Assembly: GCF_009914755.1 (NCBI RefSeq)
Contig: NC_060941.1
Direction: 5' to 3' (one strand)
Length of the DNA: 64,000 nucleotides
Source of the DNA: the human T2T-CHM13v2.0 reference genome, Homo sapiens
Part shown: piece by piece, positions 17,344 to 20,173 of the stretch
Layout of the letters: each line of letters starts with the position of its first letter
Position numbering within the stretch: position 1 is the stretch's first letter
Position numbers and translations under genes: made by a program
Notes under the pieces: generated by a model
Seen by the model: the letters and a program-made list of their open reading frames with translations, nothing else
Told to the model about the DNA's origin: nothing
The model's database searches: none

Positions 17344-20173
17344 GGACCCAGCAGCCCTGTCTTTCACCCCTGGCTGGGGGACATCTGCAAGGTGACTTTG
17401 AGCTGAGGCTCCGGCACCGTGATGAGCAAGTGCGTAATAAAACGGGACTTGGGATTTGAAAGCTGCATTCTAATACAGTGTCTTCTCCACGGTGATTTTA
17501 GTGTCATTTGATGGAGGAGGACTGAGCAAGGAGGGGTAATATAGACCTAAGATGAGCTGCTTATTGTGAAATTCCCTTCAGGCCGACTCAGAAACCACAG
17601 GCCTCCCCACACACAGGAATGGGAGCGGTTGCCAAGGATGGGCATAATACCAACAGCCCTTTTGTCTTCTATCTAAGCCTGCAGAAGGGGGTATTTCTGA
17701 ACAGCACCCTTCTGTGGGCATGCTACATCCTGTCTCCGAGGCTGCTTCTGCTGGCTAGATTAGTCTCTAGGTGGCTCTCCTGCTGGAAGAAACGGAAACC
17801 TAAACCTGCCTCTCCCCACCCATTAGTTAGGTGGGCCTGCCCAACACCTTCCTGGGTTCACATCCGGCCAGACAAGAAAGAAGCCAAAAAACTTTCCGTC
17901 TACCACTGCGCCTCCTCATGCCCACCCCATCCTATTAGCCTAAAATGGAACGGGCTAATTAGTTTATTTGTATAGGGAGGGGTTTCAGCTGCCTGGACAA
18001 AACCAGGAGTCCACTGTCCAAGCTTCTTCTGTTTTCCTGAGCTCAGAAGAAAAAAAGTGTGTTAGACTAAGATAATACCGCCTTTTGAATATCTCGGCTT
18101 CATATTTGCCTCCATGAGTGAGAGGGCCAAGTGTTATCTGCAAGTTGAATCTTCTATATTCAAAAATCTCCATCCCTTTTTTCTGCCAGCGCATTCCCAG
18201 ATCAGCCGTTCACTTGCTCTAAGCCTCTATAATTTATTTTTTTCTTTTCTCTTTAACCTGCTCTTTCCATTGGCCAGTTTATTCATTTCTCAGCTACAGC
18301 TTCAGAGGGGCTCACCTTCGGGCTTCCCGCCCCAAGGGCATCTGGAGGCTTCAGTTCTGTTTTCTCTGCTGAGTCAGGAGCCAGGCCCAGCTTGATTTGG
18401 TCTCCCGTGTATCTTTGTGTCTCTGTCTCAGTCTCCTGCTAGTGTGCCTTGGGTGCCTCATCAATCTCTTCCCATCCCTGTGACAAGTGGGTGAAAATCA
18501 ATCCACTTCTGGCTCTTCCAGGCCCACCAGAACTGAGGGCCTCAAATCACAGGCCCCTGGGAAAGGGAGGGGCCAAAGCCAGGAGTGACCCCACCTGCAT
18601 CGATGTTCTTTGCCTCTGCCATTGAAGGCAACTGGTCATAGGGCAGAGGGGGAGAAGCCAAGGGAGGCAGAAGGGAGAAGTGATTGTTGCAAGGAGCAGC
18701 CCTCTGGAGCCAAAGATGTGAAAGTGTGACTCTCAGAATGTCTGGGTCTTTAAGACGGGTTAGCCGTAGCCCAAAGGTAGCCAGCCCAGACTCACCTTGA
18801 GGCTTAAAAATCAGTAAGAACTTCCTTTAACAATTAAAAAAATATTGTTTTCCATTTTGGAAAAGAAAATAAAGTTTAAACTACTAAGGAGAAATAAAGG
18901 TGAGACAAAATTAACCTGGTTAACTGGTTGACAGGCTGCGGCCCTCATTAGGGTCAGAATGATGGGATTGGGGGGGCCGAGGCAGTGTCACCTTCCGCTG
19001 CCCCCCGATCTGCAACCCCACCACTCTCTGGATTTGTGCGTGTCAAGTCCACTCTCTCTGTAGCAAAGGTACATCCTGAGCTTGCTGTTCTCACTCTGGA
19101 GTTGACATTGCAGGATAACCAAGAGAAAGCAGGTGTTTTGGTCAGCTATGGTTTAGCTATGAATTGGTTCAGTCGGTATGTTCTGCATTCATACTTCTTT
19201 GTCTTTTTTTTTTTTAAACAAAAGGAAAAAAAGTTTAAATCCCCCCTTTCCTTCTCCTGCAGGAGGTGAGTGTGTGGGTGTCCTGTAGAACCATTGGCTT
19301 CCACCCCAGCTCTGGCCCCAGCCTCCAGGTTTACCATTCCCCCCCATCCCTCCCTCCATCCCCTTCTCTCCACCCCAAAAGGAAACTCTCTGCCGCCATC
19401 ATTACTGTTATGTCAAGATGCCCAAACTCTCCATAACATATCCCATCCTCCGACCACGTTCAGTATTGATGACTTTCATTCAGTGTTATGAATGGGAAGG
19501 GCGGGAAGGGAGGGAGTAGCCAGTGGGGAGGGGGGGGTGGTGGGGGTGGGATGGAGAATGGAGATCTTTTTTGTCTTTTTTAAAAAAAAAAACAAAACAA
19601 ATTTGTCATTTAATGGATCCAAAAACAAAAAAGAAAAAGTGAAACACACACACAAAAAAAGATCAAAAATCCCCTCTGCAAAGATTTTTTTTTTCCTGGA
19701 CACAAATTGCTTTGTTTCCTGTCACGTTTTAATATCAATATTAACACAATGTGTAGTCTAAAACTAGTTCCTTTGTAGTTTGCATGGGATGTGAATGCTG
19801 TCTCAACGTGCCCAGATCTAGAAGACTGCATGAGCATCAATTCAGATGTGAAAAAAAAACTCTCTCTCTCTCTCTCTCTCTTCCATATATATCTCTATTT
19901 CTATTGTGATAATTTGGTGGGCAGTGAAGCACCTCCGGTTGGTTGCCGTAGTGTGTTGAATGATTGTTTTTTTATTCTCTATATTTTTGGAGCTCCAAGC
20001 TTCTTAGTAGTAGCCTGGGCTGAGTATTCTTGAGTCCCTGCTGATGTTTTCGCATGGCCTTGGTTGAGTGTTAGAAGTTGGGCCTCAGCTGTTTTTCTCA
20101 AGTGTTTGGCTTGTAATGACCGGTGCATGCCTGGCTTCTGGCCTCATACCCAGCTCTATTCTCTGCACACCAG

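What the first reader, a model, noticed from the sequence alone, without database searches (positions are those of the whole stretch)
19236..19271. Strong candidate 3-nt microexon GAG (19263-19265), or recursive splice site
Seen: tttaaatcccccctttccttctcctgcag|GAG|gtgagt, an uninterrupted pyrimidine tract, CAG, 3 nt and a consensus donor, ~0.9 kb upstream of the next coding exon. Inference: inclusion adds one Gly (G|GA G|GC or G|GA G|TC) in the Gly/Ser-rich low-complexity region. Alternatively GAG|GT acts as a zero-length recursive (ratchet) site in this long intron.
Basis: partly seen in the sequence, partly recalled or inferred. Interest (0 to 1): 0.78.

Follow-up and report, generated by a model that had tools for sequence, protein, structure and literature searches.

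The report
Candidate three-base microexon in human MSI2
An unannotated three-base stretch in a long intron of the human RNA-binding-protein gene MSI2 is flanked by textbook splice signals inside DNA that appears conserved in a deer, and is likely (about even odds, no transcript evidence seen) a rarely included tiny exon that would add one glycine.

Summary
The motif is real: a 19-nt pyrimidine tract (19240-19258), CAG, GAG (19263-19265) and GTGAGT, 908 nt before MSI2 exon 12 in a 22.8-kb phase-1 intron. Inclusion would add one Gly. It is the best of 89 AG-NNN-GT sites in the intron and has a stronger tract than three cytohesin GAG microexon sites. The motif alone is not above chance: genome-wide, 3-nt spacing gives 101 matches against 120 for the reversed control and 130/128 for 4/5 nt. 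The one independent support is a muntjac gene model that reads through the site at 15/16 residues, fixing 8 of 12 splice-signal bases but not the A of AG or the T of GT. A second block 240 nt downstream is equally conserved, so the constraint is not specific to the signal. No inclusion evidence was found: 0 of 97 protein junctions carry the Gly, and the catalogues searched lack it, though they are weak for 3-nt exons in long introns. Verdict: low-inclusion cytohesin-type microexon about 0.5; unused motif in a conserved element about 0.33; recursive site about 0.08, because GAG is a poor acceptor behind CAG. Known kind, modest interest.

The parts
19234..19238 (+). Branch-point-like TTTAA; candidate A at 19237/19238, about 25 nt before the AG (inferred from consensus)
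   Evidence: Sequence; the AG-free zone before the CAG is 27 nt
19240..19258 (+). Uninterrupted 19-nt polypyrimidine tract
   Evidence: 19 of 20 pyrimidines vs 16 of 20 at three cytohesin GAG sites and 12-14 of 20 at the annotated acceptors 20174, 20228 and 22243
19260..19262 (+). Candidate 3' splice site CAG
   Evidence: Sequence; C and G are fixed by the deer residues, the A is not
19263..19265 (+). Candidate 3-nt microexon GAG, phase 1, would add one Gly; about hg38 chr17:57,674,007-57,674,009
   Evidence: Phase; hg38 place from the offset of VastDB rows, assuming no indel in the intervening 0.96 kb
19266..19271 (+). Candidate 5' splice site GTGAGT
   Evidence: 7 of 9 match to the recalled U1 consensus; +1, +3, +4, +6 fixed and +5 a purine in deer, +2 T not fixed
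19235..19282 (+). Conserved block spanning the whole motif
   Evidence: 15 of 16 read-through residues identical to Muntiacus reevesi model P0052; tblastn E 1.2e-9 against intron 11; 300 shuffles reach at most 9 of 16
19504..19536 (+). Second conserved intronic block without splice-signal character
   Evidence: 11 of 11 residues identical to P0052, E 2.7e-5
19781..20129 (+). Three TGCATG elements (RBFOX-type, name recalled) at 19781, 19827 and 20124
   Evidence: 3 in 908 nt vs 13 in the whole intron, Poisson P about 0.01-0.016, post hoc; they may regulate exon 12 acceptors instead
20174..20382 (+). MSI2 exon 12 with two acceptors (20174 long, 20228 short), the downstream partner
   Evidence: Hub annotation; translation; VastDB rows HsaALTA0005376 and HsaEX0040316

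Best explanation
The site is a complete acceptor and a consensus donor three bases apart in MSI2 intron 11, and is likely a real but rarely included 3-nt cassette exon that would add one glycine just before exon 12. Shown: the signals, the phase and the frame. Partly shown: conservation in one deer. Inferred: the two signals are too close for ordinary exon definition, so the site would be skipped by default. When used, the 0.9-kb downstream intron would be removed from the GTGAGT donor and the 21.8-kb upstream intron to the CAG, probably in a restricted cell type and possibly helped by the downstream TGCATG elements. The added Gly falls in a low-complexity tail and is predicted to change the protein little.
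For: Full canonical architecture, at least as strong as three human cytohesin GAG sites of the same sequence and phase (that cytohesin exons add a Gly is from PMC6314551). Best of 89 AG-NNN-GT sites in the intron. In frame with no stop for both exon-12 acceptors. 15 of 16 read-through residues shared with muntjac P0052; simulated chance is 0.0003-0.006 at 70-80% nucleotide identity and 0.03 at 85%, while 16-mers starting at residues 1-49 of the same model reach only 6-8 of 16. The junction tolerates in-frame inserts across vertebrates: 7-19 aa exon-11 extensions, a 59-60 aa cassette, the 18-aa alternative acceptor, and one extra Ala in a Xenopus isoform. MSI2 already has a 24-nt retina microexon in intron 10, identical in human, with the same tract-next-to-AG layout.
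Against: No excess of 3-nt motifs over controls or frame-shifting lengths. Not in RefSeq (hub table). 0 of 97 protein representatives joining exon 11 to the long exon-12 acceptor carry the Gly, nor do 17 exon 10-to-12 joins; no short-acceptor junction was sampled. Absent from the mouse MicroExonator table, from the SRRM4-response and tumour tables searched and from the retina lists searched. Conservation rests on one species at protein level, leaves the A of AG and the T of GT unfixed, and extends to a non-splice block. The deer model reads through the donor although it would join exon 12 in frame, which may mean the donor is not intact there.
Confidence: 0.5

Rival explanations
1. The motif is an unused look-alike inside a conserved intronic element whose job is something else, such as a protein-binding platform for exon-12 acceptor choice or a transcriptional element. 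It is tolerated because rare use would be harmless.
For: The motif class is at chance frequency. Conservation also covers 19504-19536 and the 130 nt before exon 12. No protein or catalogue evidence of inclusion. A similar CAG-GAG-GTGAG string without a tract occurs in MSI1 intron 11.
Against: The conserved block coincides with a complete branch point, tract, acceptor and donor set, and only 4 such strict motifs exist in 3.1 Gb. The catalogue negatives are weak: all 11 GAG microexons in the mouse table sit in introns of at most 5.1 kb, and the chance-match term for this intron is 0.75.
Confidence: 0.33
2. The GTGAGT donor serves a longer exon that starts at an upstream acceptor (for example 19114, 152 nt; 19225, 41 nt; 19234, 32 nt), most of which would bring a premature stop and trigger decay, as a poison exon for autoregulation.
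For: These acceptors exist and give stops in the exon-11 frame. Poison exons are common in RNA-binding-protein genes (established knowledge, recalled). The deer model's match begins next to the AG at 19232-19233.
Against: The upstream acceptors are weaker (6-15 of 20 pyrimidines vs 19; none of those with 14-15 is a CAG). No such exon is in RefSeq (hub table) or in the 6 MSI2 rows seen.
Confidence: 0.09
3. The site acts only in splicing intermediates: exon 11 is joined to the distal GAG, regenerating a strong donor that then splices to exon 12 with nothing retained (zero-length recursive site).
For: AG is directly followed by GT. The regenerated donor would match 8 of 9 consensus bases vs 7 of 9 for the native exon-11 donor. 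The intron is 22.8 kb, and MSI2 has recursive sites in a 128-kb upstream intron (PMC6110456 tables).
Against: It needs the least favoured acceptor (GAG) with a CAG 3 nt upstream. Recursive sites are mostly YAGGT. A ratchet 0.9 kb from the intron end would shorten only 4% of it. Published pipelines do not test it: PMC6110456 drops sites within 2 kb of annotated splice sites.
Confidence: 0.08

Closest known systems
Cytohesin-1/2/3 PH-domain 3-nt microexon (diglycine/triglycine switch; PMC6314551)
   Same: Same three bases (GAG), same phase, adds one Gly; tract-AG-GAG-GTR layout seen at three human Sec7-PH loci (gene names recalled from chromosome position).
   Different: The cytohesin Gly sits in a folded lipid-binding loop and shifts affinity about 100-fold, is included at high levels and lies in introns of a few kb. 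The MSI2 site is in a low-complexity tail, in a 22.8-kb intron, with no inclusion shown.
MSI2 24-nt retina microexon in intron 10 (mouse MmuEX0029826; PMC9303857, PMC7821500)
   Same: Same gene, tract directly next to the AG, in frame; 24 of 24 identical in human at about window -4090.
   Different: 24 nt, catalogued, and present in 32 of 165 protein records; the 3-nt site is in none.
SRRM3/4-dependent neural microexons (10.1101/2024.09.17.613571; PMC12871342)
   Same: Size class, strong donor, frame preservation.
   Different: Those have a tract displaced from a weak acceptor with a UGC enhancer between. Here the tract abuts the acceptor and the only near UGC is the one inside TGCAG.
Vertebrate recursive splice sites (PMC6110456)
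   Same: AG directly followed by GT in an intron over 5 kb.
   Different: The acceptor would be GAG rather than YAG, with a competing CAG, 0.9 kb from the intron end.

Membership tests
3-nt in-frame microexon (cytohesin type) | At most 27-30 nt between canonical AG and GT with strong signals | tested here: met
3-nt in-frame microexon (cytohesin type) | Keeps the reading frame without a stop | tested here: met
   Phase 1 on both sides, adds Gly
3-nt in-frame microexon (cytohesin type) | Splice signals and flanks conserved | tested here: inconclusive
   One deer model, 15 of 16 residues; 8 of 12 signal bases fixed, A of AG and T of GT not
3-nt in-frame microexon (cytohesin type) | Included in mature mRNA | not testable with these tools
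   No RNA-seq access; indirect checks negative but weak
SRRM3/4-dependent neural microexon | Pyrimidine tract set back from a weak acceptor with a UGC enhancer between | tested here: not met
   Tract ends 1 nt before CAG; UGC only at -5 (within TGCAG) and -79; feature
SRRM3/4-dependent neural microexon | Inclusion responds to SRRM3/4 | tested here: inconclusive
   MSI2 is not in the SRRM4 inclusion sheet or the other exon tables among 13 of 19 files of PMC7935315 searched, apart from exon 12/13 events; the event may be missing from their library
Recursive splice site | AG immediately followed by GT in a long intron | tested here: met
   19264-19267; intron 22,754 nt
Recursive splice site | Strong YAG acceptor at the junction | tested here: not met
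   The acceptor would be GAG, 1 nt of AG-free spacing after CAG; preference order
Recursive splice site | Recursive junction reads or sawtooth | not testable with these tools
   PMC6110456 excludes sites within 2 kb of annotated splice sites; tables of the 2026 preprint were not seen

The most novel reading that the evidence does not exclude
The microexon is conserved not for its glycine but as a splicing relay. When used, it places a strong donor 0.9 kb instead of 22.8 kb from exon 12 and so steers the choice between the two exon-12 acceptors, that is between the nuclear form with the extra 18 residues and the cytoplasmic translation-activating form of MSI2 (PMC13228403).
Probability: 0.08. 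Interest if true: 0.62.

Novelty: new member of a known kind. Interest (0 to 1): 0.3.

Why it matters
If real, it is an unannotated exon of the smallest class in a stem-cell and cancer regulator. It sits at the junction where an 18-residue acceptor choice is reported to move MSI2 between nucleus and cytoplasm (PMC13228403), so it could be a missed variable in MSI2 isoform studies. It also shows a blind spot: 3-nt exons in introns over 20 kb are penalised by discovery filters. On its own, one glycine in a low-complexity tail is unlikely to matter much, and 3-nt Gly microexons are a known kind.

Tried and rejected
(1) Relic of the 59-60 aa cassette exon that fish, amphibians and reptiles carry in this intron, suggested by an FKSP read at 19234 and an NSP-like read near 19430. 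A protein profile found nothing below i-E 2. A back-translated profile scored 20.5 locally (third peak in the intron) against a shuffled intron-wide maximum of 20.9 +/- 1.6, while the positive control (exon-11 extension remnant) was its top peak. Not supported. (2) The Xenopus tropicalis isoform X6 one-Ala insert (P0139) as an orthologous microexon: more simply a tandem acceptor at exon 12, since the human acceptor is one substitution from that pattern. (3) Crotalus P0060 ends its insert in Gly-Gly-Val, but it belongs with the exon-11 extensions. (4) A search with the minus-strand read-through frame gave 3 hits at 94-100% identity, probably human, uninformative. (5) The protein Atlas gave no usable hit. 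(6) Folding 19170-19330: z -0.41. (7) Rfam on 18000-21000: one chance-level match, E 0.35. (8) 19100-19700 is single-copy in the genome. (9) MSI1 intron 11 has no tract-bearing counterpart. (10) Full-text searches: MSI2+microexon 27 papers, 25 listed, none naming this site in title or abstract start; MSI2+vast-tools+3 nt 0; MSI2+recursive splicing 0; MSI2+intron 11 2, neither relevant by title. The HMMER search over all protein representatives for further species was not run, so conservation rests on one species.

Full report
Observation. MSI2 exon 11 lies outside the window and ends at -2581 with a phase-1 G. Intron 11 is 22,754 nt to the long acceptor (20174) and 22,808 nt to the short one (20228). 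Inclusion would add one Gly with either acceptor. From VastDB rows for exons 12 and 13 the site maps to about hg38 chr17:57,674,007-57,674,009.

Chance. Within the intron it has the most pyrimidine-rich acceptor of 89 AG-NNN-GT sites, 2 of which hold GAG. Genome-wide the class is not enriched. The strict pattern (15 pyrimidines, N, YAG, exon ending AG, GTRAGT) gives 4, 0 and 2 matches for 3, 4 and 5 nt against reversed controls of 4, 11 and 2. The relaxed pattern gives 101, 130, 128 and 168 for 3, 4, 5 and 6 nt against 120, 113, 129 and 163. The window holds 13 looser look-alikes, one of them beyond the gene end at 53217 with 20 of 20 pyrimidines. The motif alone therefore cannot establish an exon.

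Comparison with real 3-nt exons. I located four Sec7-PH loci. In three, a GAG with 16 of 20 upstream pyrimidines and a GTA donor lies between the two PH exons; the fourth gave none under the same filter. The names CYTH1/3/2/4 and the identification of these as the known microexons are inferred from recalled positions and from PMC6314551. The MSI2 site has 19 of 20 pyrimidines and a 7 of 9 donor, so its signals are at least as good. Its layout is not the SRRM3/4 type. The catalogued 24-nt MSI2 retina microexon in intron 10 also has its tract next to the AG, so this does not exclude regulated use.

Conservation. No vertebrate genomes were available, but a Muntiacus reevesi gene model returned (P0052) reads through the intron. 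Sixteen of its residues match the human read-through of 19235-19282 at 15 of 16 (tblastn E 1.2e-9 against intron 11; 300 shuffles reach at most 9), and eleven more match 19504-19536 at 11 of 11. Its first 50 or so residues do not map (6-8 of 16). Simulated neutral divergence gives 15 of 16 with P 0.0003, 0.0009, 0.006 and 0.03 at 70, 75, 80 and 85% base identity. The residues fix 8 of the 12 bases of acceptor, exon and donor and make +5 a purine. They leave the A of AG, the middle exon base and the T of GT open, and imply one pyrimidine-to-A change in the tract. There are three caveats: this is one species; the constraint is broader than the splice signal; and the model runs through a donor that would have joined exon 12 in frame.

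Inclusion evidence. Among the 165 proteins listed (the best 120 of 827 and the best 120 of 151 hits), 97 join exon 11 to the long exon-12 acceptor with at most 3 residues between: 96 directly, 1 (Xenopus X6) with an Ala, none with a Gly. Seventeen exon 10-to-12 joins also have none. One search used a query with an insert at the junction so that Gly forms would rank high. The limits are clustering at 90% identity, poor annotation of 3-nt exons, and no short-acceptor junctions sampled. The mouse MicroExonator table lists the 24-nt Msi2 exon but nothing else at chr11:88.33-88.38 Mb. Its 11 GAG microexons all lie in introns of at most 5.1 kb, and the tool's chance-match term would be 0.75 for this intron, so the negative is weak. 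MSI2 rows in PMC9303857 (12 of 18 files), PMC7935315 (13 of 19 files) and PMC12868881 (1 file, none) do not include this site.

Mechanism. Most likely (0.5) this is a default-skipped 3-nt cassette exon used at low level or in a restricted cell type. Signals, phase and frame are shown; conservation is partly shown; use, tissue and regulators are inferred. Three TGCATG elements lie between it and exon 12 (post hoc P about 0.01-0.016) but could equally act on the exon-12 acceptors. The junction accepts in-frame inserts across vertebrates, so a Gly would be tolerated. The rivals are an unused motif in a conserved element (0.33), a donor shared with a longer stop-bearing exon (0.09; acceptors weaker) and a zero-length recursive site (0.08). 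The last needs the least favoured acceptor behind a CAG. MSI2 does have recursive sites in a 128-kb upstream intron (2 of 4 rows of that table seen), but that pipeline drops sites within 2 kb of annotated splice sites.

Known kinds and novelty. It would work like the cytohesin glycine microexons, but membership needs inclusion, which could not be tested. It fails the layout test for SRRM3/4 microexons and the YAG test for recursive sites. I found no description of the site (listings only) or in the passages read. VastDB, GENCODE and junction databases could not be queried, so it may already be catalogued. The boldest reading not excluded is that it steers the exon-12 acceptor choice that PMC13228403 links to nuclear versus cytoplasmic MSI2 (0.08).

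Papers and what I saw. PMC13228403: abstract, sections 9 and 12, passages. PMC7821500: passages and supplement searches, one file too large to read. PMC9303857, PMC7935315, PMC12868881: supplement searches and file lists only (two files of PMC7935315 too large). PMC6110456: passages and 12 of 15 supplements, one cut. PMC12871342: abstract and section 20. PMC6314551, PMC2699507, PMC5599597, PMC12697546, PMC10987577 (supplements not readable), 10.1101/2024.09.17.613571 and 10.64898/2026.09.10.750672: passages only. Unseen supplements, above all the 3,022-site recursive table and full VastDB event tables, may bear on the novelty claim and on the recursive rival.

Verdict. At about even odds this is a new member of a known kind. 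Interest 0.3.

Noticed in passing
L003, window about -2580 to -2525 (start of intron 11): A decayed in-frame extension of exon 11 is still readable in human; fish, reptile and marsupial records use it as a 19-residue exon extension.
   Followed up: partly
MSI2 intron 11, protein records P0094, P0101, P0152, P0154 and others: Fish, amphibians and reptiles have a 59-60 residue cassette exon between exons 11 and 12 that has no significant trace in the human intron; it appears lost in mammals.
   Followed up: yes
L003, window about -4090: Human copy of the 24-nt retina microexon of mouse Msi2 intron 10, 24 of 24 identical, with canonical splice sites.
   Followed up: yes
window 7094-7153: Matches at 65% part of an alternative exon in an Equus asinus MSI2 isoform (P0038); a tract-CAG-15 nt-GTGAG motif follows at 7165.
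   Followed up: no
window 20029-20172: The intron end before exon 12 is strongly conserved in read-through records (83-100% in most, about 73% in a duck record). VastDB counts three acceptors for this exon, and the deer model appears to use one near 20154.
   Followed up: partly
window 53217-53227, 46917-46923, 9216-9244, 406-413: Other strong tract-YAG-short-GTGAG motifs, two beyond the annotated gene end; probably decoys.
   Followed up: no
window 60654: Tract-CAG directly followed by GTGAG, a formal zero-length recursive motif, outside any annotated gene.
   Followed up: no
P0139 versus P0148 (Xenopus tropicalis): Two annotated isoforms differ by one Ala at the exon 11/12 junction, likely a tandem acceptor.
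   Followed up: partly
L005/L006 (MSI1 intron 11, about 220 nt before exon 12): A CAG-GAG-GTGAG string without a pyrimidine tract in the paralog; probably chance.
   Followed up: partly
L008 (G000:C3:111157526-111157553, minus strand): Another of the 4 strict 3-nt motifs genome-wide, in non-repetitive context with a UGUG upstream; gene context not checked.
   Followed up: no
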